49,526 nucleotides of DNA from sequence record PZ296778.1; one strand, 5' to 3'. The stretch comes from a phage. Below, one piece after another: positions 2,167 through 48,851 of the stretch. The stretch's first letter is position 1; each line of letters opens with the position of its first letter. Below the pieces are notes generated by a model, which saw only the letters and a list, made by a program, of their open reading frames with translations, was not told the origin of the DNA and did not search any database. A program made the position numbers and the translations under genes.

Positions 2167-3459
2167 ATGAGCGAAAAAACAAGGCTAGTTAAGGCCGATG
2201 GATACAACGAGATTTTCAAGGGTAGTAAGGGCAATGGGCGTGTAGAGTTGCCTTTCTTTATGCAAGGGTTCGAATACACCACGCACGCTGATTTTTACAT
2301 TCGCGACGGCCTAGCAAAACGAATTATCGACGTTGTTCCAGAAGAAATGGTGACGCCTGGATTTAATATTGATGGCGTGGAAGATGAGGAGAGTTTTAGA
2401 TCTTTGTGGGATGAGAAGCGACTAAACGATAAAATCATTGATGCGCTTTGCTGGTCGCGTCTTTTTGGTGGCGCTGCAATCGTGGCAATCGTTCAGGATG
2501 GCAGGTCGTTAAAGTCACCTGTAGCGCCTGGTGCAATCCTTGAAGATGTTCGCGTTTACGATCGCTTTCAGGTTAGGGTAGAAAAGCGCGAAACTAATCC
2601 ACGCAAGGTAAGATATGGTGAGCCATTAATTTACACCATTTCACCTGGTGCCGACTTGCCAGAATACCAGGTTCACTATTCGCGAGTCTGTATTATCGAC
2701 GGTGAGCGGCTACCAAATCAGCGGCGTCAATCAAATGATGGGTGGGGTGAGTCGATCCTGAATAAGAGACTTGTTGAGGCTATTTGTGATTATAACTACT
2801 GCGAAAACTTAGCAACTCAATTGTTGCGACGTAAGCAACAGGCGGTATGGAAAGTTAAAGGTCTTGCTGATCTTTGTGATGATGATGATGGTGTTAGTGC
2901 CGCACGTTTGCGACTTGCTCAAGTTGATGATGAGGGTGGCGTAGGCCGTGCGATCGGCATTGATGCGGAAGATGAGGAATATGATGTTTTAAATTCTGAT
3001 ATTTCTGCCGTCGATTCGTTCTTGGAAAAGAAGATGGATCGCATTGTATCTCTTTCCGGCATCCATGAAATCATCCTCAAAAACAAGAACGTTGGCGGTG
3101 TTAGCGCGAGCCAAAACACGGCGCTTGAAACCTTCTACAAGCTGATCGACAGAAAGCGAAAGGAAGAATACAAACCAATCCTTGAATTTCTGATCCCGTT
3201 CCTTATTCAAGAGGAAGAATGGAGCATTCAGTTTGCGCCGTTAAGCGTTCCAAGCGAAAAGGACCAGGCCGAAATCTTGAACAAGAACATTGATTCTTTG
3301 AGTAAGGCTATTGACGGTCAATTCATGGATGCAGAAGAGGCGCGCGACACATTGCGAGCCATTGCGCCTAACGTTAAACTAAAAGACGGCAATGACATTA
3401 AATTACCTGAGCAAGACGTAGAGCCGGAGCCAGGAACAACAGAGGGTAGCAATCAATGA
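2167..3459 (+). CDS. portal protein
   Basis: About 430 aa, directly downstream of the large terminase; acidic C-terminus; start moved to the ATG after RBS ggag (track start 2161 is TTG). Confidence 0.7.
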   Translation: MSEKTRLVKADGYNEIFKGSKGNGRVELPFFMQGFEYTTHADFYIRDGLAKRIIDVVPEEMVTPGFNIDGVEDEESFRSLWDEKRLNDKIIDALCWSRLFGGAAIVAIVQDGRSLKSPVAPGAILEDVRVYDRFQVRVEKRETNPRKVRYGEPLIYTISPGADLPEYQVHYSRVCIIDGERLPNQRRQSNDGWGESILNKRLVEAICDYNYCENLATQLLRRKQQAVWKVKGLADLCDDDDGVSAARLRLAQVDDEGGVGRAIGIDAEDEEYDVLNSDISAVDSFLEKKMDRIVSLSGIHEIILKNKNVGGVSASQNTALETFYKLIDRKRKEEYKPILEFLIPFLIQEEEWSIQFAPLSVPSEKDQAEILNKNIDSLSKAIDGQFMDAEEARDTLRAIAPNVKLKDGNDIKLPEQDVEPEPGTTEGSNQ

Positions 3460-4211
3460 TAGTGAAAGGCGTCGTTAAACAATGGCGCTTTCCTGAAGCA
3501 AGCGAGCGGCAATTGCGCCGCTCAATTCAGGAGGCGATAAGGGATCTTGTTGTGCTGATGCGCAGCAAAACAAAGGAAATGAAATTTGACGCGGACACCG
3601 AAGAAATCAACGCCGCAGAGGATGAGATTAGTAGCTTCGCGTTAAAGCTAATAGCTGGCATCGCCGCATCACTTCCGGCTATCGGTCTTGCTGTTTATAA
3701 ATTCAACGCGAAGCAATTTATTAACGTAGCCAAATCAACGGGAGGCAAGTCAAATTCAGCCGTTATCATCCTTATGGCTATTGGGGCCAATGCGAATGAG
3801 AGTTGGTATAGGACGCTATACGGTCAATGGCATGACATGACGATCGCATCTCTTCAAAAGCTATTTGGAAACATCGTGTCTGACTGGTCAACCAATATTA
3901 GATTGGCAAACTTTCGCGGAATGAGAGATAGCCAGGTTAATGAATTGGCTGGTAAGAGGTTCGCAGTGTATAGCTCTTGGGGTAAGACAAGGGCGGAAAA
4001 CATCATAGGCGCTTGGAATAGTAGACTCATGCGCCAGCGTCTTTATGATTCAAAAGTAACTCATTATTTTTGGCATGGTATGCTTGATGACAGAGAGCGA
4101 TTGCAGCATGTACAATGGGAAGGTAAGCGCATTGCGCTAGATTCTGAACATGATTTTCCTGGTGAGCCTTTCGGTTGTCGTTGTTGGGCCATACCAGATT
4201 GGAACAGTTAA
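3456..4211 (+). CDS. head morphogenesis / minor head protein (putative)
   Basis: 251 aa, start overlaps portal stop (ATGA); position typical of SPP1 gp7 / Mu F-like minor head proteins. Call is positional. Confidence 0.45.
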   Translation: MIVKGVVKQWRFPEASERQLRRSIQEAIRDLVVLMRSKTKEMKFDADTEEINAAEDEISSFALKLIAGIAASLPAIGLAVYKFNAKQFINVAKSTGGKSNSAVIILMAIGANANESWYRTLYGQWHDMTIASLQKLFGNIVSDWSTNIRLANFRGMRDSQVNELAGKRFAVYSSWGKTRAENIIGAWNSRLMRQRLYDSKVTHYFWHGMLDDRERLQHVQWEGKRIALDSEHDFPGEPFGCRCWAIPDWNS

Positions 4212-4221
4212 GAGGTATTAA

Positions 4222-5337
4222 ATGAAGGCAAAACAAAGATTTGATAGCGCCAAAGTAAAGGCGCACTTTGATGATAACGGGTTTTTAGTTGATCGCCCTA
4301 TCGTGGCGCGAATTGGTTTACAAGTCTATCAGACTCCTTTCGGTGAGCGCCGAGAATTTCGCCCTGCGTCAGAAGTATTCAAGGCCGACTCGCTCGCCAC
4401 CTTTGCAGGGAAGCCGGTCACGGTTGGTCACGTCACGGTAACGCCAGAAAACGCCGAAAAGGTTGTAGTTGGTTCTTGTGCTGGCGCTGGTGTGCCGAAC
4501 GGGATCGGCGTAGAGGTTCCGTTAAGCATTTACTCAAAACGAGCAATCGAAAGCGCAAAGAAGCGAGACACGGCGGAAATTTCAGTTGGTTATACATCGG
4601 TTGATATTGATAAACCAGGCTGGGGCAATAATAAAACTGGTGAGTACGTTTTCGATGAGGACGTTAGCGAAGACTGGAAACCTGATTCTCCTGATTGGGT
4701 TAAGTTTGATGCAATCCAGACTGAAATCAAGGTAAACCACATCGCGTTAGTTTTCCGAGGTCGAGCTGGCATTGCAAAATTAAACCTTGATAGCCAGCAA
4801 GATTTTCCGTATAGTGACGACGTTATTAACAACAAAGAGGATCAAATCATGACTGTAAAAATTAAACTGGATGGCGCTGTAGAGTTTGACGTGCCGAAAG
4901 CGGTTGCGGATCACATTGAATCACTGAAAGCTGATACCAAAGCGCAGAAAGAAAATGCTGACAGCCTGGAAGCTGAGCGAGACGCACTGCAAACCAAAGT
5001 AGATGGCATTCAGGATCAGATTGATGCCGCAGTCAAGAAGGCCAAAAAAGATGCCGAGCAATATGCTCAATTAGTGGCGGACGCTAAAGAGTTAGGCATC
5101 AAGTGCGACGGCCTGGATGCGAAAGCAATCAAGGTTGCATACATCAAGGAAGTTATGGGCAATGACGTTTCTGATAAAACTGATGCCTATATCGAAACAG
5201 CTTTCGACATCGCCAAAAACTCTGATAAAATGGCGGCGCAGCGTAAGAGCATTAAAGGTGACTCTTTCGCGAATGAAAAGCAGGATGACGCAGGTTCTAA
5301 GCTGAATCCTAACGCTCGTTTTGAGAAACTTAAATAA
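4222..5337 (+). CDS. capsid scaffolding protein (putative)
   Basis: 371 aa; C-terminal half is alanine/lysine/glutamate-rich and coiled-coil-like (AEQYAQLVADAKELGIK...); lies between head morphogenesis and capsid genes. Confidence 0.4.
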   Translation: MKAKQRFDSAKVKAHFDDNGFLVDRPIVARIGLQVYQTPFGERREFRPASEVFKADSLATFAGKPVTVGHVTVTPENAEKVVVGSCAGAGVPNGIGVEVPLSIYSKRAIESAKKRDTAEISVGYTSVDIDKPGWGNNKTGEYVFDEDVSEDWKPDSPDWVKFDAIQTEIKVNHIALVFRGRAGIAKLNLDSQQDFPYSDDVINNKEDQIMTVKIKLDGAVEFDVPKAVADHIESLKADTKAQKENADSLEAERDALQTKVDGIQDQIDAAVKKAKKDAEQYAQLVADAKELGIKCDGLDAKAIKVAYIKEVMGNDVSDKTDAYIETAFDIAKNSDKMAAQRKSIKGDSFANEKQDDAGSKLNPNARFEKLK

Positions 5338-20655: not shown

Positions 20656-20924
20656 AAAGTATATATATATCTTGAATCAGATCCAGAAAGCCCACTCCAT
20701 GTAACGGTGTCGCCACTAACCCCTAAGTTTGGTGCGCCAGGGTCGCCACCACGCCAGGAATTCATGCCAACATATATTGCTTTCAATGATTTACCTGGCG
20801 GCCTGTTTTGGTAAGTCTTGCTACCTGATGGCTGAGTGAATTTATCAAGGAAGAAAACAGGCGTTAAAAGTCCTGTAACTTCCCTTCCTCGATCGTCATA
20901 TATTGCATAACCATATTGCGCCAT
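20646..20924 (-). CDS. hypothetical protein
   Basis: 92 aa; start overlaps the lipoprotein stop (TAATG). Confidence 0.4.
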   Translation of the reverse strand: MAQYGYAIYDDRGREVTGLLTPVFFLDKFTQPSGSKTYQNRPPGKSLKAIYVGMNSWRGGDPGAPNLGVSGDTVTWSGLSGSDSRYIYTFWG

Positions 20925-21199
20925 TAATTACACCTCAAATCAATAAATTTACTTTCATTTTGCCAACGGTTGATAAATTTAACTTCTTTATTGTCAACGC
21001 TCAACCTGTATTGCTTTTGGCTGAATCTGTTTTCGCGGACTGCATTAATTTTGACTTCATGGAATCCGTTAACAGGGAATGTTTTAACGTTAAATTTTGC
21101 CGTGCAATCGATCTCCTTGAAGTTGCCAGTAGGCGACGCTGCGCATCCTGTCAGAGCGGCTACAGTGGCGATAACTGCGATTAACTTTTTCATCTTCAA
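20924..21199 (-). CDS. lipoprotein (candidate Cor/Llp-type superinfection exclusion protein)
   Basis: 91 aa; signal peptide plus lipobox (AALTGC); RBS aaggag; first gene of a leftward operon next to the tail genes. Confidence 0.55.
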   Translation of the reverse strand: MKMKKLIAVIATVAALTGCAASPTGNFKEIDCTAKFNVKTFPVNGFHEVKINAVRENRFSQKQYRLSVDNKEVKFINRWQNESKFIDLRCN

Positions 21200-21248
21200 T
21201 ACTCCTTAGTTGTTGTTGGATGCAACTATACACGATCTTGGGCATCGC

Positions 21249-21267
21249 GTTTAGCAAAAAGTGCTAT
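21249..21267 (-). promoter_or_regulatory. conserved intergenic motif copy R3 (variant)
   Basis: GTTTAGCAAAAAGTGCTAT about 50 nt upstream of the minus-strand lipoprotein gene. Confidence 0.55.
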
Positions 21268-21636
21268 TTGTTATTTTTTGTTTTCCGGTGTTATCGAATT
21301 TAAGACGGCGTAAATTTAGCGCAAAATTTAGACAACATAAGATCAATAAACAATCAATAAAATAGATATATACATATAAAATCAATAGTTTATTTATTTA
21401 TGTATGTATATTTGTTTTTTCTTGTTATCTGCGTTTCTTGTGGTTTTGGTTGTTTGTGGTGATTTTTCTTTCTGAGTATCTGTATGTGCCATCATTCATG
21501 TGTATGTATATAATCCGGCGTATCTGAGAGAACATGGGAACAAGAAAAATAACACACATTAATCATTAACTTATGAGTCAAATCTGTTTTCTTGCCATCT
21601 GAGAACGTTTAGAAAACAGAAAAAACAAAACAGCTA

Positions 21637-21664
21637 TTGACTAAATCAACAAAATGGCTACAAT
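21637..21664 (+). promoter_or_regulatory. sigma70-type early promoter for the exonuclease/Erf/SSB module
   Basis: -35 TTGACT, 16-bp spacer, -10 TACAAT; A-tract (gaaaacagaaaaaacaaaa) immediately upstream; about 30 nt before the exonuclease RBS. Confidence 0.6.
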
Positions 21665-21694
21665 GCACGCATAAAGCAACAAGGAGCATTAAAG

Positions 21695-22750
21695 ATGAGT
21701 GATTTTAACGCCTACACTAGCGAAGAAATGAGCAACGAGCTTTATCATGATCCTAACGCGTGGACGGCTGAATATGTCAGCGGTTCCAGCCTAGCGGAGA
21801 TTTACAGCACTTGCCCGGCGTACTGGAAGTACAAGCCGCGCCAGGAAACTAAAGCACTTGTTTTCGGTACGCAGTCGCATACCAACTTTGAAAGCAAGGA
21901 GCTATTCGAAAAAACATATCGCCGCGCACCGTCGCAGGATGATTTTAAAGATCTGATCACTAGTCAAACGGCGTTAGCATCAAAGCTGAAATCTTTTGGC
22001 CTGAAAGGTACAACGGGCAAACAATACCCTGAATTACTGGAAATGCTGTACAAGTGCGGCGAGGATCTCAATGTGTGGTGGCTTATCGAAATGATGGCAG
22101 AATGCCAGGCCGCAGCGGACGGAGTGCAGTTAATAGACGCTAAAGATTATGATGCCTGTGTAGCGATGCGGCGCGTACTTGAGGCCATACCGGAGCATAA
22201 CGCTTGCATGAACAGCCCAACCGCGCAGCGTGAAATGTCAATATTTGGGATCATCAACGGCGTAAAAGTAAAAGTGCGTCTTGATCACGTTGACGTAAAC
22301 AAGGATGTAAAGGCAACAATCATTAACGGTTACGACGAAAAAGGCAGGCCGATTTATGAAGAAGTCACCTATCCAGAAGCGGTGATTATCACTGACTACA
22401 AAACAACGGTTAGCGCAAATCCGGTTGACTTCCAGCGCCTGGCTTACAATCACGGCTATTATCTTAAAATGGCTTTGCAACATGACTTATTCAAAAAGGC
22501 TTATCCAGACGAGGAAAGGCCAGTAATTGTAAGATTGCTTGCGCAGGAGAAGAAAGAGCCTTACTTGCCGCTTGCTTTCCGCATGAATATTGAGCAATTG
22601 AAGATCGGGCGCATCCAGTACATGAGCGTGATCAACAAGTTCAACGTTTGCCAGCAGTTAGACGAATGGCCTTCGTATGCAAACGGGCAACCGGAAATTG
22701 ATCTTGATACTCCTGATTGGGTTCGTGCTCAATTCAGGCATTATCTTTGA
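21695..22750 (+). CDS. exonuclease (PD-(D/E)XK, RecE/YqaJ-like)
   Basis: 351 aa; D...(I)ITDYKT catalytic-type motif; first gene after a strong early promoter; adjacent to Erf and SSB. Confidence 0.55.
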   Translation: MSDFNAYTSEEMSNELYHDPNAWTAEYVSGSSLAEIYSTCPAYWKYKPRQETKALVFGTQSHTNFESKELFEKTYRRAPSQDDFKDLITSQTALASKLKSFGLKGTTGKQYPELLEMLYKCGEDLNVWWLIEMMAECQAAADGVQLIDAKDYDACVAMRRVLEAIPEHNACMNSPTAQREMSIFGIINGVKVKVRLDHVDVNKDVKATIINGYDEKGRPIYEEVTYPEAVIITDYKTTVSANPVDFQRLAYNHGYYLKMALQHDLFKKAYPDEERPVIVRLLAQEKKEPYLPLAFRMNIEQLKIGRIQYMSVINKFNVCQQLDEWPSYANGQPEIDLDTPDWVRAQFRHYL

Positions 22751-22825: not shown

Positions 22826-23083
22826 ATGACAGACAAAGACAATGCCACATTATTGCATTTAGAACGATTCATTGATCGAGTAACCATTGCAATGAAAGAA
22901 TTTATTAAGCCGATGAACATTAAAGAGTCGGAAGAAATGAAGACTTACATCAAGGACGTGGTTGCATCCATTGACAACGTTATCCTTGTTGCAACGATGA
23001 GCAAGGGAAACAAAGAGCGCGAGAGGTTGGTTGCTGAATCAACAGAAGAATTTATTAAAATGCTTGAAAGCGAGAAGGAATAA
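22826..23083 (+). CDS. hypothetical protein
   Basis: 85-aa ORF between exonuclease and Erf; RBS present. Confidence 0.4.
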   Translation: MTDKDNATLLHLERFIDRVTIAMKEFIKPMNIKESEEMKTYIKDVVASIDNVILVATMSKGNKERERLVAESTEEFIKMLESEKE

Positions 23084-28343: not shown

Positions 28344-28820
28344 TTAGCTATTCGTGCTGTTATCACCTTTGTAGAATCTTCCGCCTGGTTCGTAGTCTGA
28401 ATTTTTGACTACGCGCAACATTTCGTATTTGTCGCAACGGGTAGTAAGAGGCTTGCCGTTAGAATCAAACCGCAGATCTGGACGACAAAACGAGGCGCGG
28501 TATCCTTTGCATCCATTATATTTGTAGTCGTTATGCACCTTTTGTGCTCCAGCGGCTGAAATCATACCACGCTTTCGCCATTGGTTAACGACTTGCTGAG
28601 ATACGCGCAGACGTCGAGCCATAGCAGGAACGCCGCCGTAATACTCGATCAGAATGTCAAGGCGAGATTTCAGGCTTGCTTTTACCTCATCTCGCAGGAT
28701 AAGAAATCCGGTTCGGTGTTTTCGTGGTTTTTTGTCTTTACCTCGTCGCGTTCCGTTGTTACCGTTAATAGTGCGCTTGTCGATCTCACCCGTAGATACT
28801 GCAATTCGTGCATCTTTCAT
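28344..28820 (-). CDS. HTH DNA-binding protein (putative regulator)
   Basis: 158 aa; Xre-like helix-turn-helix (ARRLRVSQQVVNQWRKRG); RBS gaggtg; transcribed divergently from the helicase. Confidence 0.45.
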   Translation of the reverse strand: MKDARIAVSTGEIDKRTINGNNGTRRGKDKKPRKHRTGFLILRDEVKASLKSRLDILIEYYGGVPAMARRLRVSQQVVNQWRKRGMISAAGAQKVHNDYKYNGCKGYRASFCRPDLRFDSNGKPLTTRCDKYEMLRVVKNSDYEPGGRFYKGDNSTNS

Positions 28821-28831
28821 CTAGTCACCTC

Positions 28832-28851
28832 ATAGCATTTTTTGTTAAAAC
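28832..28851 (+). promoter_or_regulatory. conserved intergenic motif copy F2 (variant)
   Basis: ATAGCATTTTTTGTTAAAAC in the divergent region upstream of the helicase gene. Confidence 0.55.
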
Positions 28852-28907
28852 AGTTTATTGTAATGAGTATATTATATACTCCAAATGGCATTTTTTAAAG
28901 GTTTAAG

Positions 28908-35770: not shown

Positions 35771-36166
35771 TCATGTGATATTGAATTTACGGCGCAGTGC
35801 TTCAAGATCTTGTCTATTAGCTTTTGCCTGGAACAATTCATCATCGCCCATCTCCCCTATTCTAGCTATATCCCTGATCCAGTCGTTGCGCATACCATCC
35901 AGGCTATACAATTCGAATCCGAAAGGCCGCTTTGACGATCCTTTGGACCAGTATTTTCCGCATACTCCATCTATATAACCAGCCGTCATCATTCTTGCGC
36001 AAAATTCCTTAGATGCAAGGCTGGCGAACATTCGCGGCGTAAGTCCGGCGGCCCGTGCGAGCCGCTCACATTCTCTATGCTGATAGATAAATTTGGCTAT
36101 GTGCTGCCTGTTAAACCAATCGTATGACTCACACCATTTATACAGATCAAGCAAAAACATAATCAT
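35771..36166 (-). CDS. hypothetical protein
   Basis: 131-aa ORF; start overlaps stop of the upstream P-loop gene (ATGA). Confidence 0.45.
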   Translation of the reverse strand: MIMFLLDLYKWCESYDWFNRQHIAKFIYQHRECERLARAAGLTPRMFASLASKEFCARMMTAGYIDGVCGKYWSKGSSKRPFGFELYSLDGMRNDWIRDIARIGEMGDDELFQAKANRQDLEALRRKFNIT

Positions 36167-37854
36167 CCCAGCAGTATTGGATTGACAAAAATAACACCAT
36201 TAATCACACAAACATAATTTCTTTCTTCCAGCATTGGCAGTAAGTGCCCTTCTATCCTTTTCATTACGCCAGCCTGACCAACGAAAGGTTTTACCTTTCT
36301 CGCTGATTCGTACAGGGCGCGGATATTCAGAATCCCTTTATTAGCCTTGCCGTGCCTCGTGATCAATTCAATCAATTTACCCATTTCAGCATCATCACCA
36401 GCATAACCAGAAGCATTGGCGGCGCTAATGTATGTTTTGCTCAATTCCTGAAACATGATCAACGCCTCTTGCATTGTTTCCACGTCGATCTCTTTCGACT
36501 TCTGCGGGTATCCGGCAGGATTAAACCAGTTACGGATAACATGCAGGACGGAAGCAAGCCTGATCACCTGTTTATCCATTTTACCCAGCGCACCGCGTAA
36601 CATTGTATGAGAATACTTTCCTCCGTCTGCAAGATGCGGTTCCATATCCTGGCGAGCAATGTTGAGCACTCGCATAGCTGAACGGCTTATTTTCAGCGAT
36701 ATATTTGATTCGCTCATGATGTTATGCACCAATTGATAATATTGGGCTTTCAATTCAGAATCCACCGCCTCATAGGTAGAATCACCATTTTCATCAATGA
36801 ATGAGCGACGGCCTAAGAATGATTCCTCGCGGACCAACAAAAAACGCTCACTAACACCGATGCCTCGCGATCCAGCGTCCATGATTCCGCTTATCGTTTC
36901 ATCCTGGGCTATAACGCTCATACATCCAAGCGCGCGAAAACTCATATTATTGTCAGCATTAGCGCGGGCAATTGATACGTGACCATTATCCCACGCCTTA
37001 AGCACTAACTCACTGTTAGTCTTCCTTTCGCTATTTGCATAGGTCAAGCCTAACAGACTGTTAATACTTGTTGCTTCATCAGATATTACGGCAAAGTTAC
37101 CTTGCTTGTTGTTGATTTTCGCCAAGCCTTCTGGAGTTGTATCTGAGACAGGAAAAGTTATATCACACATTTTTTCCAGTTTTTCCTCCAGATCCTCTTT
37201 TTCCTGGTATAGAGATTCCATATCAGCGCCGGATCTTTCGCTTTTCATCTCCTTTGCAAGACCTGCCAGCTTTGCCTGTATTTTCTTTCTTTCCTTGCGG
37301 CGTTGCTCGTTGATCTTCTCAACTTCCGCAATCATCGGAGCAATAGCCATGCTGTTGATCGCAGATTTACCAGTTGACGGCGGCTGGCTTGTAACGACGT
37401 AAAGCGCAGTCGGCTGATCGGTTCCGTGATAGTCAACCGTAAAGCGTCCAAGCATAGCGGCAGAAATGCAGCCGATAAAGTGCATGTAAGCCGATGATTC
37501 AGGGAATTGAACGGATCGCGCAATGCTGCGTGATAACTTGCCGACAACATCAATATCATTACCAAGAGAAATAACGGGGTAGCGATCGTGACCGCTATTC
37601 ACATCCGATTCAGGGAATTGAACGGATCGCGCAATGCTGCGTGATAACTTGCCGACAACATCAATATCATTACCAAGAGAAATAACGGGGTAGCGATCGT
37701 GACCGCTATTCACATCCTTTACGTCGCCCCAAAAGCTGGACGACTGGCGATAGCCGTTAGCCTGAATTGATACGCGAACTGGCGAAAGGTTCTGGCTTTC
37801 AGCCATAGCGATTATTTGTTGTGGAGTTAATTTGTTCGTTTCTAATGAAAACAT
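36163..37854 (-). CDS. P-loop NTPase of unknown function (DUF3987-like?)
   Basis: 563 aa; Walker A-like PSTGKS and Walker B-like FAVISDEAT; N-terminus carries a perfect 37-aa tandem duplication; RBS aaggag. Confidence 0.5.
   Translation of the reverse strand: MFSLETNKLTPQQIIAMAESQNLSPVRVSIQANGYRQSSSFWGDVKDVNSGHDRYPVISLGNDIDVVGKLSRSIARSVQFPESDVNSGHDRYPVISLGNDIDVVGKLSRSIARSVQFPESSAYMHFIGCISAAMLGRFTVDYHGTDQPTALYVVTSQPPSTGKSAINSMAIAPMIAEVEKINEQRRKERKKIQAKLAGLAKEMKSERSGADMESLYQEKEDLEEKLEKMCDITFPVSDTTPEGLAKINNKQGNFAVISDEATSINSLLGLTYANSERKTNSELVLKAWDNGHVSIARANADNNMSFRALGCMSVIAQDETISGIMDAGSRGIGVSERFLLVREESFLGRRSFIDENGDSTYEAVDSELKAQYYQLVHNIMSESNISLKISRSAMRVLNIARQDMEPHLADGGKYSHTMLRGALGKMDKQVIRLASVLHVIRNWFNPAGYPQKSKEIDVETMQEALIMFQELSKTYISAANASGYAGDDAEMGKLIELITRHGKANKGILNIRALYESARKVKPFVGQAGVMKRIEGHLLPMLEERNYVCVINGVIFVNPILLG
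37496..37717 (-). repeat. perfect 111-bp in-frame tandem duplication inside the P-loop gene
   Basis: Two identical adjacent 111-bp units (37496-37606 and 37607-37717) encoding a duplicated 37-aa segment. Confidence 0.85.
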
Positions 37855-40032: not shown

Positions 40033-40245
40033 TCATTTCTTATTTTTCATCTTAAATTTATGGCCTAGAACACCAGCACCAATATAGCCATCGTTGTATT
40101 CCATTAAATAAAGGTGAAGGCCATTATCTGAAATTACATGAGGATCTTCTTTGAGATTTCCCATTAGCGGGTATTCTTTTCCGCGCGTAAATCTCCAAGT
40201 TGAGTCATAAGTTTCTACGCATTTAAGTTTTAATTGCTTTGCCAT
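40033..40245 (-). CDS. hypothetical protein
   Basis: 70-aa ORF; overlapping start/stop with the upstream gene. Confidence 0.4.
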   Translation of the reverse strand: MAKQLKLKCVETYDSTWRFTRGKEYPLMGNLKEDPHVISDNGLHLYLMEYNDGYIGAGVLGHKFKMKNKK

Positions 40246-40442
40246 TAGATGATCTCCATGTATGTTTCAAAGCCATTTAACTTGAACAGGCCGTTTTCAC
40301 ATTTGCGAACGTTCCAAGTTAGCCCTGAGTGGTACGCCTCCATATCATCAAGGTCAATGGTGATTTCAGCACCTTTCTTAAACAAACCTTTTTCGTGAGA
40401 CTTGTCGCGCTTAACAACTTTAACATCAACCTGATTTTCCAT
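40245..40442 (-). CDS. hypothetical protein (first gene of leftward early operon)
   Basis: Start moved to MENQVDV after RBS gagga; the track start at 40565 would read through motif copy R7 and its hairpin. Confidence 0.4.
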   Translation of the reverse strand: MENQVDVKVVKRDKSHEKGLFKKGAEITIDLDDMEAYHSGLTWNVRKCENGLFKLNGFETYMEII

Positions 40443-40496
40443 CTTTAAATCCTCGTTTGTTGTCGATGCGCTTACTATACCAATCAGCAGCGCATC

Positions 40497-40517
40497 GTTT
40501 TTAACAAAAAGTGCTAT
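40497..40517 (-). promoter_or_regulatory. conserved intergenic motif copy R7
   Basis: GTTTTTAACAAAAAGTGCTAT at the head of the leftward early operon; followed on the minus strand by hairpin GATGCGCT...AGCGCATC, RBS and ATG. Confidence 0.6.
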
Positions 40518-40565
40518 TTGACGGTTAGCACCAGGATTGTGATCGAAATAATCAAAAGTAATCAT

Positions 40566-41131
40566 TCGTAATCAAATCGCGTCAAAATGATGATTGCCTT
40601 TGCAAATTTGATGAGAAAAGCAATCACGTTTAATCATTGGTTGCAGGGGAGATAGTGAAACCTTCCCCTCTTGCCTCACTTTTCCGCCTGGCTGTCAGCG
40701 GTTGTTGTCTTTTGTTCACCCCTGTTACCGATTTCAGGCGGCGTGTTTCCGCGCGGTTTTCCGGTGTATCGAAAACGGAAAAAACAAAAAAAATCCTTTA
40801 TAATACATTGAAAATAAAGATTATTTATTTATATATATCTATAATGTTTTCTTTTTGTTCTCACTGTTACAGTGCTTTTTGTTGGGTGTGGTGTTGTTGT
40901 GTGTTGGTATATATGGATAGTTGCGCGCGCGGCGGATTGCATATGTATATATACTTTTTCCGGCGGATTGCGTTAACAGCGTGAACAGAAAAATAACAGC
41001 CCTGAAATCAATAACTTGCGCATGATTTTGTAGTTTTTCGATATTGGTAACGTTTTGAATACAACAAAAACATTGACACGCACCAAATAGCTTTTATAAT
41101 GCGCCAACAGTCAACAACTGGAGGAAAGGAA
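40566..41131. promoter_or_regulatory. AT-rich non-coding control region between divergent early operons
   Basis: About 565 bp; A-tracts shared with 21200-21694, direct repeat CGGCGGATTGC twice, GT-rich tract, consensus promoter at 41073; the track ORF 40637-40984 is judged spurious. Confidence 0.5.
41073..41100 (+). promoter_or_regulatory. consensus sigma70 early promoter for the rightward early gene array
   Basis: -35 TTGACA, 16-bp spacer, -10 TATAAT; A-rich upstream tract; about 30 nt before RBS ggagga and ATG at 41132. Confidence 0.65.
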
Positions 41132-41596
41132 ATGGAACAGAAGACCACTAAGGACTATTGCGATTGGCTTCGCGAACTTGGTCGCCGCCTGGCTAGTGGC
41201 GATATTGAAGAGTATAAAATGTCACTAATTGACCTGGCCGGAATGTTAAGCGGTGACGACTGCTACAAGATCACGCGCAGTTCATCCTACAGCCGGACCA
41301 TTATCAACCGCGTTCCAGAAGTAAGGGCCGCAGGTCGGGTAAGCATCAAGGTAGAGGAAACGGAAGATGATAAATTTTACGTTTTCCGCATGGTCCGCGA
41401 ATCGAAAAGGAAAATCATCACACCCGAAGAATTGCCAGCCATCAAGGCAAGGGCGATCAAAAAGTTTGCCGATCGCATACTGGCAGCAATCCCGAATATC
41501 GTTGACCTGGAAGGGGATAAACTGGCTGGGGCTTGCGAGGGCGTAAGCCGCTACCAGGATATGATCCGCGAAATCATCAAAGAGGAAGAGCAATGA
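41132..41596 (+). CDS. hypothetical protein (first rightward early gene)
   Basis: Start at MEQKTT after RBS ggagga, about 30 nt downstream of a consensus sigma70 promoter. Confidence 0.5.
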   Translation: MEQKTTKDYCDWLRELGRRLASGDIEEYKMSLIDLAGMLSGDDCYKITRSSSYSRTIINRVPEVRAAGRVSIKVEETEDDKFYVFRMVRESKRKIITPEELPAIKARAIKKFADRILAAIPNIVDLEGDKLAGACEGVSRYQDMIREIIKEEEQ

Positions 41597-48690: not shown

Positions 48691-48851
48691 TTGACAACTC
48701 TTTCCTGATTGGTTAGCATGGCGTCGTTTACATAAGAGCGGCTTTGTCCGAACGCGTGACGCGATAGTCACACAACAACGGCGATATGCAGGAGGTTTTT
48801 GCAATGCAAAATAATCCGTAAGACGTATCGCCTTTTTAATGGAGATCCAAA

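What the first reader, a model, noticed from the sequence alone, without database searches (positions are those of the whole stretch)
21200..21694. 495-bp AT-rich non-coding region with iteron-like repeats and a strong early promoter
The region separates the leftward lipoprotein operon from the rightward recombination module. It contains short ATCAATA-type repeats, two imperfect 35-bp direct repeats, a GT-rich tract, motif copy R3 and a near-consensus sigma70 promoter (TTGACT-16-TACAAT) preceded by an A-tract. A-tract and GT-rich elements are shared with the 40566-41131 region. It is a candidate replication origin or early control hub.
Basis: seen in the sequence. Interest (0 to 1): 0.55.

Follow-up and report, generated by a model that had tools for sequence, protein, structure and literature searches.

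The report
Duplicated early-promoter and origin-like module
The 500-base gap upstream of the recE gene of this T1-like coliphage is one of two ancient, strongly conserved copies of a control module: a strong host-type early promoter preceded by mirror-image arrays of short repeats around the most easily melted DNA of the genome, which may be the family's still-unmapped replication origin.

Summary
The window is a T1-like phage (Drexlerviridae, Warwickvirus). The gap 21194-21694 is non-coding and 31.5% GC.

- Already known: the 'R3' motif is the family's 21-nt direct repeat, here pointing left. The TTGACT-16-TACAAT promoter corresponds to TLS 'P51' and to the T1 recE promoter, which drives GFP reporters and is repressed by the phage regulator Pir.
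- Apparently undescribed: 21268-21666 is one of exactly two paralogous ~400-bp blocks per genome. The other is 40702-41102, which ends in the genome's only perfect sigma70 promoter.
- The duplication predates the Tempevirinae genera, and the block changes more slowly than four-fold sites of recE.
- Each block has TGTT(C) triplets at 10-bp phase, mirrored by inverted GAACA triplets, around a TA-rich core. In four genomes, including T1, the two cores are the two least stable 100-bp stretches.
- No RNA family, conserved RNA fold, conserved small ORF, DnaA box or CRP site was found.

Best reading: a divergent early-promoter hub (well supported) whose dyad and AT-rich core is an origin-like unwinding and protein-loading site (inferred, about 0.4). 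The main rival is a purely transcriptional regulator platform (about 0.35). The repeats resemble phage P4 iterons, but no protein resembling P4's origin-binding domain was found.

The parts
20924..21193 (-). First gene of the leftward operon: a 89-aa lipoprotein (signal peptide plus lipobox LTGC), at the position where related phages carry Cor. Its start codon at 21191-21193 sets the left edge of the gap.
   Evidence: The RBS AAGGAG (minus strand) is at 21203-21208 (read).
21225..21230 (-). -10 hexamer TATAGT of the leftward DR-type promoter. The predicted transcript start is near 21218.
   Evidence: ACTATAC is conserved in the orthologue alignment. Every DR copy in the window has the same DR-to-(-10) geometry. 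The transcript start is inferred, not mapped.
21249..21269 (-). It points left and begins 76 nt upstream of the ATG. It contains the dyad TAGCA-N5-TGCTA, centred about -42 from the -10.
   Evidence: The consensus and the ~76-nt spacing come from PMC11447400. Assigning it as a Pir operator is my inference, from Pir activating the T1 dam promoter, which carries a perfect DR.
21268..21315 (+). Left arm (IR-L, the L array): TGTT at 21269, 21279 and 21289, exactly 10 bp apart. Other genera have TGTTC(A/T)C here.
   Evidence: TGTT columns invariant in 12/12 sequences.
21320..21392 (+). A-rich segment with ATCAATA x3 (21342, 21353, 21381) and an exact IHF consensus, AATCAATAGTTTA, at 21380-21392.
   Evidence: The IHF-like copy is conserved in most Tempevirinae. 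IHF binding was not tested.
21323..21422 (.). TA-rich core. It is the least stable 100-bp stretch of the whole window (the 40-bp minimum of this block is 21357-21396) and the centre of the block's dyad symmetry.
   Evidence: z 4.96. The same holds in T1, aalborv and W011D. Dyad symmetry: (I1).
21409..21475 (+). T/G-rich M array: YGTT at 21413, 21423, 21432 and 21451, plus the conserved GTGGTGAT at 21456-21463.
21501..21520 (+). TGTATGTATAT, an exact repeat of 21401-21411, followed by the conserved CCGGCG (21515-21520). The GTGCCA-17-TATAAT promoter-like hit at 21486-21514 lies here but is not conserved.
   Evidence: (D11).
21508..21554 (-). Right arm (IR-R, the R array): an inverted copy of IR-L (GAGAACA, GGGAACA, AATAACA), with AACA at 21531, 21539 and 21551. 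Other genera have GTGAACA here.
   Evidence: TGTTCA/TGAACA columns pair in all 12 sequences.
21561..21573 (+). IHF-like site AATCATTAACTTA, one mismatch from WATCAANNNNTTR. The aligned position in regB (41006-41018) and in several genera matches the consensus exactly. It lies about 65-75 bp upstream of the -35.
   Evidence: Binding not tested.
21600..21636 (+). A-rich promoter-proximal array (AACR at 21604, 21615, 21624, 21629), at the position of an UP element.
   Evidence: An UP-element function is inferred.
21637..21664 (+). Early sigma70 promoter of the recE-erf-ssb operon: -35 TTGACT (21637-21642), a 16-nt spacer, and -10 TACAAT (21659-21664). The predicted transcript start is near 21671, and the RBS AAGGAG is at 21681-21686.
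   Evidence: It is orthologous to TLS P51 and lies within the region equivalent to the T1 PrecE-gfp fragment.
40702..41102 (+). The paralogous block (regB), with the same order of elements. It ends in TTGACA-16-TATAAT (41073-41100), the only 12/12 promoter of the window, which reads into the rightward early gene cluster (DUF7174 protein, probable ATG at 41133).
40499..40519 (-). DR copy of regB. It points left towards the Gp54-family gene (40245-40565) and the operon that contains the DUF3987 helicase.

Best explanation
The gap is a divergent early-control module, one of two paralogous copies per genome.

Shown or well supported:
(1) Its right end is a host sigma70 early promoter that transcribes recE-erf-ssb.
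(2) Its left end is a DR-type promoter for the lipoprotein operon. The 21-nt repeat sits about -42 from a -10 hexamer and there is no -35, the layout of an activator-dependent promoter.
(3) The ~290 bp between them is under purifying selection. It is built as TGTT(C) triplet, A-rich stretch, TA-rich core, TGTT array, then an inverted GAACA triplet.

Inferred: this core is a protein-loading and unwinding element, most likely an origin of replication. A phage DNA-binding protein would occupy the phased arrays on both sides in opposite orientation. The winged-helix C-terminus of the DUF3987 helicase is the best candidate, and Pir the alternative. IHF would bend the DNA, and outward transcription from the flanking promoters would add negative supercoiling. 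The TA-rich core would then melt, so that the helicase and the P4-alpha-like primase can enter. The second copy (40702-41102) would be a second origin or a cis-acting partner, as with P4 ori/crr or SPP1 oriL/oriR.

My confidence is about 0.85 for the promoter-hub part and about 0.4 for the origin part. The figure given for this explanation is the origin figure.
For: - Identity and neighbours: 99.8% identical to Warwickvirus phages. RecE and Erf lie to the right and a lipoprotein to the left.
- Promoter: conserved across the family, T1 included. It is one of three sigma70-type intergenic promoters in this window and in TLS (P01, P51, P57). T1 PrecE-gfp is active and is repressed by Pir and cAMP-CRP.
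- DR promoter: 20 DR matches, each with a -10 about 20-22 nt downstream. The T1 dam promoter, which Pir activates, carries a perfect DR.
- Two copies: profile nhmmer finds exactly two full-length blocks in the window, aalborv and W011D (E 1e-78 to 1e-89). All Tempevirinae-type recE loci tested carry a full-length block except the unverified 2019SD1 assembly (L047), where the match is split. Orthologues are far closer than paralogues (188 against 54 bits), so the duplication is old and both copies have been kept.
- Selection: block identity exceeds identity at four-fold sites of recE, 96% against 81% for L007 and 66-69% against 44-51% across genera. The gap is 460-530 bp in almost all 43 relatives, including TLS-like phages where the left neighbour is co-directional.
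- Arrays: TGTT/AACA counts are 15 and 17 against about 7.8 expected. Phased pairs are 5 and 9 against 0.4 expected, reached in 0 of 1000 shuffles.
- Dyad: the arms are inverted copies of each other, and the reverse-strand self-hit recurs in several genomes.
- Unwinding: the two block cores are the two least stable 100-bp stretches of the genome in the window, T1, aalborv and W011D (z 4.3-5.9).
- IHF: exact consensus sites at 21380 and 41006.
- Replication proteins: the primase is homologous to P4 alpha residues 20-263 (E 4e-16). The P4 type-1 iteron TGTTCACC, phased at 10-11 bp in ori and crr, matches the ancestral arm motif TGTTCAC/GTGAACA. The helicase C-terminus is predicted as a winged helix (pLDDT 84).
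Against: - There are no replication data for any T1-like phage, so the origin reading rests on architecture alone.
- The invariant repeat core is only TGTT, in T-rich low-complexity DNA. I chose the set of phasing distances after seeing the data.
- The regA arm symmetry alone is weak (z about 1.5).
- There are no DnaA boxes in either block.
- Neither the helicase nor any other replication protein tested shows homology to the P4 alpha origin-binding domain (hhalign probability 0.1%; blastp). Foldseek gives only generic winged-helix hits, none at E<1e-3.
- Both flanking promoters read away from the core, unlike the transcription-primed origins of T7 and T4.
- The promoter is an integral part of the duplicated unit at fixed spacing, which is just as well explained by shared transcriptional control.
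- In T1 the repeat motifs of the two regions differ (TGTAACA against GATTAAC/ATTACGC).
- A- and T-tract helical periodicity is not unusual here.
Confidence: 0.4

Rival explanations
1. The module is purely transcriptional. The whole 400-bp block would be the upstream regulatory region of a strong early promoter. The phased TGTT/GAACA arrays and the AT-rich core would bind a phage regulator (Pir or another early protein) or host nucleoid proteins (IHF, Fis, H-NS). These would boost the promoter at the start of infection and shut it off later, perhaps by looping between the two arms. The block occurs twice because the phage has two early operons under the same control. It would play no part in replication.
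For: - The promoter sits at a fixed distance at the same end of both copies.
- T1 recE promoter activity is repressed by Pir and cAMP-CRP within a fragment that covers only the right third of the block, the R array to the promoter.
- IHF-like sites lie at promoter-typical distances, and an A-rich stretch sits at the UP-element position.
- TGTTA is the right half-site of the DR, the presumed Pir operator.
- No initiator homologue was found.
Against: - 400 bp of selected DNA is very long for a sigma70 promoter. The far arm and the core lie 120-370 bp upstream.
- No full DR-like site exists inside the block (PWM scan), and there is no CRP site with two or fewer mismatches.
- The arm motif changes between subfamilies (TGTTCAC against TGTAAC/TTAC) while the DR stays constant, so the arrays are unlikely to be read by the same protein as the DR.
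- The core being the least stable DNA of the genome in four genomes, despite sequence turnover, is not needed for a promoter enhancer.
Confidence: 0.35
2. The gap encodes a non-coding RNA, for example an A/C-rich leftward transcript or a G/U-rich rightward one, that acts as a regulator or sponge. The sequence conservation would reflect the RNA.
For: - Both strands fold slightly better than shuffles (z -1.8 and -2.3).
- A promoter-like GTGCCA-17-TATAAT lies inside the gap.
- The authors of PMC6737242 speculated about a phage-encoded small RNA or riboswitch.
Against: - No Rfam family reaches threshold and there is no tRNA.
- RNAalifold on 12 orthologues gives -1.98 kcal/mol. The only conserved pairing is between the two arms about 290 nt apart.
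- The modest z-scores occur on both strands, as expected from a DNA-level dyad.
- The internal promoter-like site is not conserved.
- No terminator lies inside the gap.
Confidence: 0.04
3. The gap holds small protein-coding genes on the minus strand, as annotated in some GenBank records (44, 32 and 29 aa).
For: Three 'hypothetical protein' CDS are annotated in ExeQuayColi, G3B1 and other records, at positions equivalent to 21251-21385, 21394-21492 and 21492-21581.
Against: - Outside the closest relatives, these frames mostly carry stops or frameshifts: the 32-aa and 21425-21559 frames are broken in nearly every other genus, and the 44-aa and 29-aa frames survive intact in only a few sequences.
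- The peptides are low-complexity.
- Most records annotate nothing here.
Confidence: 0.02
4. The block is a site for another DNA transaction, such as packaging (pac), a recombination hotspot for RecE/Erf, or a structural or partition-like site.
For: - regA adjoins the recombination genes.
- The T1 GenBank record, whose first 2.8 kb is annotated as the terminal repeat, begins inside the extra segment next to the T1 regB block.
Against: - The record start falls in the regB-specific ~180-bp extra segment, not in the shared block, and regA has no such segment.
- The TLS authors place pac by similarity to the P22 pac sequence.
- Nothing ties the phased arrays to terminase or recombinase binding.
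Confidence: 0.05

Closest known systems
TLS promoter P51 and the T1 recE promoter (PrecE)
   Same: Orthologous. Both are the sigma70-type promoter immediately upstream of recE, with the same -35 TTGACT and a TAnAAT -10. In T1 the fragment drives GFP and is repressed by Pir and cAMP-CRP.
   Different: Nothing was measured in this phage. The published work treats only the promoter, and the T1 reporter holds only the promoter-proximal ~200 bp.
Drexlerviridae 21-nt intergenic direct repeats (TLS DR1-DR18; PMC11447400)
   Same: 21249-21269 fits the consensus. [quoted passage not shown]
   Different: The authors list the function as an open question. Reading it as a class-II-type Pir operator (dyad TAGCA-N5-TGyTA at about -42) is my inference.
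Phage P4 ori and crr (type-1 iterons TGTTCACC, bound by the C-terminal domain of the alpha primase-helicase)
   Same: - Two separated cis regions share one short repeat, in both orientations and phased at 10-11 bp next to AT-rich DNA.
- The ancestral arm motif TGTTCAC/GTGAACA equals 7 of the 8 iteron bases, and regB carries an exact TGTTCACC.
- The phage primase is homologous to the P4 alpha primase domain.
   Different: - No homologue of the alpha origin-binding domain (Pfam Pox_D5, residues 670-768) was detected.
- The helicase belongs to a different family (DUF3987 rather than D5-type).
- The invariant core here is only TGTT.
- A 7-mer match could be chance.
Bacillus phage SPP1 oriL and oriR
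   Same: A virulent siphovirus with two distant origin regions bound by one origin-binding protein (abstract of PMC3485210).
   Different: There is no sequence or protein homology. The details of the SPP1 origins are from my own knowledge and were not checked here.
Origins with inverted initiator sites flanking an AT-rich unwinding element (archaeal oriC ORB/DUE, SV40, HSV oriS)
   Same: Inverted arrays on either side of the least stable DNA, the geometry used for head-to-head helicase loading. A winged-helix domain sits on the candidate helicase. The comparison itself is from established knowledge.
   Different: The arms are about 190 bp apart, much further than in those origins. Nothing here was tested biochemically.
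IHF- and UP-stimulated strong phage early promoters (lambda PL, Mu Pe, T5/T7 early promoters)
   Same: A near-consensus or consensus sigma70 promoter with an A-rich stretch just upstream of the -35 and an IHF-like site about 70 bp upstream. The comparison is from established knowledge.
   Different: Those promoters need less than about 120 bp. Here a further ~270 bp is conserved.

Membership tests
Sigma70 (host RNA polymerase) early promoter | -35 and -10 hexamers close to TTGACA and TATAAT with a 16-18 nt spacer | tested here: met
   TTGACT-16-TACAAT at 21637-21664, 10/12. regB has 12/12.
Sigma70 (host RNA polymerase) early promoter | Conserved among relatives at the same position relative to the gene | tested here: met
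   ATTGACTAAA...GGCTAyAATG is the best-conserved stretch of the gap in 15 representatives, T1 included.
Sigma70 (host RNA polymerase) early promoter | Demonstrated transcription initiation | not testable with these tools
   Known only for the T1 orthologue, through a GFP reporter (PMC6737242). No TSS data were found for any T1-like phage.
Drexlerviridae 21-nt direct repeat (DR) | Match to aaATAGCACnnnTTGnTAAAA | tested here: met
   21249-21269 on the minus strand, one mismatch in 15 specified bases.
Drexlerviridae 21-nt direct repeat (DR) | Intergenic, in the direction of transcription, about 76 nt upstream of a start codon | tested here: met
   The repeat begins at 21269 and the ATG is at 21193, a distance of 76 nt on the minus strand.
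Iteron-type replication origin (P4 ori/crr, lambda ori, plasmid oriV) | Several copies of an initiator-binding repeat at helical phase | tested here: inconclusive
   TGTT/AACA triplets at 8-12 bp spacing in four arrays per block are far above shuffles and conserved. However, only 4-7 bp are specified and the binding protein is unknown.
Iteron-type replication origin (P4 ori/crr, lambda ori, plasmid oriV) | Adjacent AT-rich DNA unwinding element | tested here: met
   The block cores are the two least stable 100-bp stretches in four genomes. Actual unwinding was not tested.
Iteron-type replication origin (P4 ori/crr, lambda ori, plasmid oriV) | A cognate initiator or origin-binding protein encoded by the element | tested here: inconclusive
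   There is no homologue of the P4 alpha origin-binding domain. Candidates exist: the helicase C-terminal winged helix and the Cro-like Pir.
Iteron-type replication origin (P4 ori/crr, lambda ori, plasmid oriV) | Replication starts there, or the region confers replication | not testable with these tools
   No data exist. PMC11447400 and PMC7718038 both report that no origin was found.
DnaA-dependent (oriC-like) origin | A cluster of DnaA boxes, TTWTNCACA | tested here: not met
   Three boxes in the whole window (5.5 expected) and none in either block.
Structured non-coding RNA | An Rfam match, or a conserved secondary structure with covariation | tested here: not met
   No Rfam hit. RNAalifold gives -1.98 kcal/mol.
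Small protein-coding genes | An open frame kept across relatives | tested here: not met
   Outside the closest relatives the annotated frames mostly carry stops or frameshifts; a few sequences keep the 44-aa or 29-aa frame open.
IHF binding site | WATCAANNNNTTR with an AT-rich flank, conserved | tested here: inconclusive
   There are exact matches at 21380 and 41006 and a one-mismatch site at 21561, and the aligned positions are conserved. The genome-wide count is not enriched (6 against 3.7 expected).

The most novel reading that the evidence does not exclude
The two paralogous blocks (21268-21666 and 40702-41102) are the long-sought replication origins of T1-like phages. In this reading, inverted and helically phased TGTT(C) arrays load the DUF3987 helicase through its C-terminal winged helix onto the TA-rich core from both sides, with help from IHF and from outward early transcription. 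The two copies would work as a pair, like ori/crr of P4, whose primase is related and whose iteron is nearly the same.
Probability: 0.3. Interest if true: 0.6.

Novelty: new member of a known kind. Interest (0 to 1): 0.42.

Why it matters
T1 is a classical phage and a notorious laboratory contaminant, yet its origin of replication and its transcription programme have never been mapped. Recent genome papers say they could not find an origin, and they list the function of the 21-nt repeats as an open question.

This analysis gives two precise, conserved ~400-bp targets for origin mapping. It also suggests a simple regulatory scheme to test:
- Three host-type early promoters: two in these blocks and one for pir.
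- The regulator Pir then switches on the roughly 20 DR promoters and turns the early promoters down.

The two promoters, especially the perfect one at 41073-41100, and their control region could also serve as parts for phage engineering. If the blocks turn out to be only promoter enhancers, the finding is of specialist interest.

Tried and rejected
- Rfam at gathering threshold over the whole window: nothing. tRNA and tmRNA: none.
- RNA folding of both strands: only modest z-scores. RNAalifold on 12 orthologues: no conserved structure.
- Small ORFs annotated in some records: mostly not conserved.
- DnaA boxes: none in the blocks.
- CRP sites: none with two or fewer mismatches, although T1 PrecE is CRP-sensitive.
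- Further DR-like (presumed Pir) sites inside the block, by PWM: none.
- A- and T-tract 10-11 bp periodicity, as a sign of intrinsic curvature: the blocks do not stand out.
- P4 link at protein level: only the primase domain is homologous. The helicase is not related to the alpha origin-binding domain (hhalign probability 0.1%). PDB sequence searches found nothing for the helicase and only Cro-like proteins for Pir. Foldseek of the helicase C-terminus gave only generic winged-helix hits.
- The block is absent from plasmids and from complete E. coli genomes, so there is no sign of satellites or plasmids borrowing it.
- The internal promoter-like GTGCCA-17-TATAAT (21486-21514) is not conserved.
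- A search for regB orthologues through the downstream DUF7174 protein returned only two loci.
- Literature searches for T1 TSS mapping or origin mapping found nothing. The T1 genome paper is not held.
Full report
**What the window is.** The 1.1 kb around the finding is 99.8% identical to Escherichia phages tinuso and AV105 and to other members of Warwickvirus (Drexlerviridae, Tempevirinae). The gene order matches T1. A leftward lipoprotein operon ends at ATG 21193 (MKKLIAVIATVAALTGC...). A rightward recE (DUF3799/PDDEXK) and erf operon, followed by a gene annotated ssb in relatives, starts at 21695. The non-coding gap is therefore 21194-21694 (501 bp), with 31.5% GC against 44.7% overall.

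**Checking the observation.**
- ATCAATA occurs three times within 40 bp (21342, 21353, 21381), out of 31 copies on both strands of the window.
- The '35-bp direct repeats' are weak: 23/35 identical, with a 21-nt core at 86%.
- The GT-rich tract lies at 21409-21475.
- The 'R3' motif is at 21249-21269 on the minus strand.
- TTGACT-16-TACAAT lies at 21637-21664.
- The similarity to 40566-41131 is much stronger than 'shared elements'. 21267-21682 aligns collinearly with 40701-41117 (nhmmer E 4e-19; blastn E 8e-27). regB has an extra ~180 bp between its DR and the shared block.

**What is already known.** The R motif is the family's 21-nt direct repeat, aaATAGCACnnnTTGnTAAAA. It was described for TLS (18 intergenic copies, in the direction of transcription, about 76 nt upstream of start codons) and its function is listed there as an open question (PMC11447400). 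The copy here begins exactly 76 nt upstream of the leftward ATG.

The rightward promoter is the orthologue of TLS P51. The TLS authors found only three sigma70-like intergenic promoters: P01, P51 and P57. My scan of this window gives the same three positions: 41073 (12/12, the only perfect promoter), 21637, and the pir promoter at 28898.

In T1, Laganenka et al. cloned about 200 bp upstream of recE in front of gfp (T1 30178 to about 30398). This corresponds to roughly 21500-21694 here. The fragment is an active promoter and is repressed by the phage regulator Pir (Orf23) and by cAMP-CRP. Pir activates the hol and dam promoters and represses its own (PMC6737242). The window's 158-aa Cro/YdaS-like protein (28344-28820, minus strand) is the Pir orthologue, at 55% identity. 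The lysogeny claim of that paper is disputed (PMC8262962). The reporter results do not depend on it.

**The DR promoters.** All 20 DR matches in the window are followed, 20-22 nt after TTGnTA, by a -10-like hexamer (CATAAT, TATAGT, TATAAT) with no usable -35. This puts the DR's internal dyad (TAGCA-N5-TGyTA) at about -42. That is the layout of an activator-dependent promoter. The T1 dam promoter, which Pir activates, has a perfect DR. The pir/helicase divergent gap has one pointing at the helicase, in both T1 and this window. I infer that the DR is the Pir operator, and that the left end of the gap is a Pir-dependent promoter for the lipoprotein operon. This is an inference, not a demonstration.

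**What appears to be new: a duplicated, selected 400-bp block.**
- A profile built from both regions of three genera finds exactly two full-length copies in each of the window, aalborv (Hanrivervirus) and W011D (Changchunvirus) (E 1e-78 to 1e-89).
- It finds a full-length copy upstream of recE in the Tempevirinae-type IMG/VR loci. The one exception is the unverified 2019SD1 assembly (L047), where the match is split.
- Orthologues are much closer than paralogues (188 against 54 bits). The duplication therefore predates these genera, and both copies have been kept without homogenisation.
- The gap upstream of recE is 460-530 bp in almost all 43 relatives. This includes TLS-like phages where the left neighbour is co-directional, so the block is not just the space between divergent genes.
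- The block changes more slowly than four-fold degenerate sites of the adjacent recE. For L007, which aligns without gaps, identity is 96% against 81%. Across genera it is 66-69% against 44-51%.
- The tiny ORFs that some records annotate here mostly carry stops or frameshifts in other genera.
- There is no Rfam hit or tRNA. RNAalifold finds no conserved structure, at -1.98 kcal/mol.

**Anatomy of the block.** From left to right in regA:
1. TGTT at 21269, 21279 and 21289, exactly 10 bp apart. regB has 40703, 40713 and 40723. Other genera read TGTTC(A/T)C.
2. An A-rich stretch ending in an exact IHF consensus (21380-21392).
3. A TA-rich core.
4. A second rightward TGTT array (21413, 21423, 21432) within a G/T-rich tract that contains the conserved GTGGTGAT.
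5. TATGTATATAAT followed by CCGGCG.
6. An inverted triplet GAGAACA, GGGAACA, AATAACA (21527-21554). Elsewhere this reads GTGAACA.
7. An IHF-like site (21561-21573). The aligned position in regB is an exact match.
8. An A-rich array (21600-21636).
9. The promoter.

TGTT/AACA counts are about twice the dinucleotide-shuffle expectation. Helically phased pairs are 5 and 9 against 0.4 expected, reached in 0 of 1000 shuffles. I chose the distance set after looking at the data. The left and right arms are inverted copies of each other (z about 3.8 in regB and about 1.5 in regA). The TGTTCA/TGAACA columns pair in all 12 orthologues. The profile also hits its own reverse strand in several genomes.

The cores of the two blocks are the two least stable 100-bp stretches of the entire genome in the window (z 4.96 and 4.26). 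The same is true in T1, aalborv and W011D (z 4.7-5.9), even though T1's sequence there is no longer alignable. T1-group phages keep phased TGT-type triplets at the same positions but with another motif, TGTAAC or TGTAATC. The DR, by contrast, is unchanged. The arrays are therefore probably read by something other than the DR-binding protein.

**Comparison with P4.**
- The P4 record annotates type-1 iterons TGTTCACC, six in ori and ten in crr, phased at 10-11 bp. This is nearly the ancestral arm motif here, and regB carries an exact TGTTCACC.
- The window's primase is homologous to P4 alpha residues 20-263 (E 4e-16).
- The alpha origin-binding domain (Pox_D5, residues 670-768) has no detectable counterpart. 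This was tested by blastp and by hhalign of the DUF3987 helicase family (probability 0.1%).
- The helicase C-terminus is predicted with good confidence as a winged helix. Foldseek gives only generic winged-helix matches, none significant.
- The region therefore resembles a P4-type two-site origin but cannot be filed as one.

**Weighing the readings.**
- The promoter-hub reading is well supported, at about 0.85.
- For the ~290-bp core I favour an origin-like loading and unwinding element, at about 0.4. The reasons are the inverted phased arrays flanking the least stable DNA, the IHF-like sites, the amount of selected DNA, and conservation of the physical property in T1 despite sequence turnover.
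- The main rival, at about 0.35, is a purely transcriptional platform. The promoter is part of the duplicated unit at fixed spacing, and in T1 Pir and CRP act on the promoter-proximal third.
- Several results count against or fail to support the origin reading: no DnaA boxes, no CRP sites, no extra DR-like sites, no unusual A-tract periodicity, and no copies in plasmids or E. coli genomes.
- No replication or TSS data for T1-like phages were found. Two genome papers state that no origin could be identified.

**Verdict.** The feature is real and strongly conserved. Its two promoters are already known or predictable. The duplicated dyad and AT-core architecture appears undescribed and gives exact targets for mapping the T1 family's origin and early regulation. 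It belongs to known kinds of element (early promoter region, iteron-and-DUE-like origin). Interest is moderate.

Noticed in passing
whole window: 2093, 6718, 10472, 21249, 27270, 28832, 31321, 32392, 35635, 37908, 38582, 40499, 41862, 42325, 43317, 44767, 46087, 47402 (start of each 19-mer): The DR copies all have the same layout: ATAGCAC-N3-TTGnTAAAA, then a -10-like hexamer 20-22 nt after TTGnTA, and no -35. The internal dyad TAGCA-N5-TGyTA is centred near -42. Pir activates the T1 dam promoter, which carries a perfect DR, so the DR may be the Pir operator of about 20 middle/late promoters. The TLS paper lists the DR's function as an open question.
   Followed up: partly
window 40521-40700; T1 (L003) 48760-48836 plus 1-200: regB has an extra ~180-bp conserved segment between its DR and the shared block. 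It contains AATCA/TGATT-type repeats and a GGGGAG...CCCCTC hairpin. The T1 GenBank record, whose first 2800 bp are annotated as the terminal repeat, begins inside the homologous segment, so this may be the pac region.
   Followed up: no
window 41073-41100: TTGACA-16-TATAAT is the only 12/12 sigma70 consensus promoter in the window. It corresponds to TLS P01, at the head of the rightward early cluster. The downstream DUF7174 gene probably starts at ATG 41133 (RBS GGAGG), not at 41099 as in the ORF list.
   Followed up: partly
window 28821-28907: The pir/SNF2-helicase divergent gap carries a DR variant (ATAGCATTTTTTGTTAAAAC, 28832-28850) pointing at the helicase. It overlaps the region of the leftward pir promoter (TTAAAA-16-TATAAT, 28898-28871). 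This layout would explain Pir's negative autoregulation reported for T1.
   Followed up: partly
window 36163-36400 (minus strand; C-terminal ~80 aa of the DUF3987 helicase): The helicase ends in a confidently predicted winged-helix domain (H-strand-H-H-hairpin, pLDDT about 90) with no significant PDB match. PHROGs treats this stretch as a separate family of unknown function (phrog_7327). Homologues are about 526 aa, so the true start is about 37 codons inside the 563-aa ORF.
   Followed up: partly
GenBank MG065637-MG065681 (hits H59-H64, H76): Eighteen records named 'Campylobacter phage', with host Campylobacter jejuni, carry this T1-like intergenic region at about 74% identity. Their genome sizes are also T1-like. 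They look like Drexlerviridae coliphage-type genomes, so the host attribution may be wrong.
   Followed up: no
L001 (OR896819.1) 3352-3682 and 4927-5184; window 21251-21581 and 22826-23083: Some records annotate three tiny CDS inside the gap; their frames are mostly broken in other genera. They also name the 85-aa ORF between recE and erf 'tail length tape measure protein'. Both look like annotation artefacts.
   Followed up: partly
window 40245-40565 (minus strand): The first gene leftward of regB belongs to Pfam PF25180, 'phage antiviral trigger protein Gp54' (E 7e-38). A known defence-system trigger therefore sits at the head of an operon driven from this control region.
   Followed up: no
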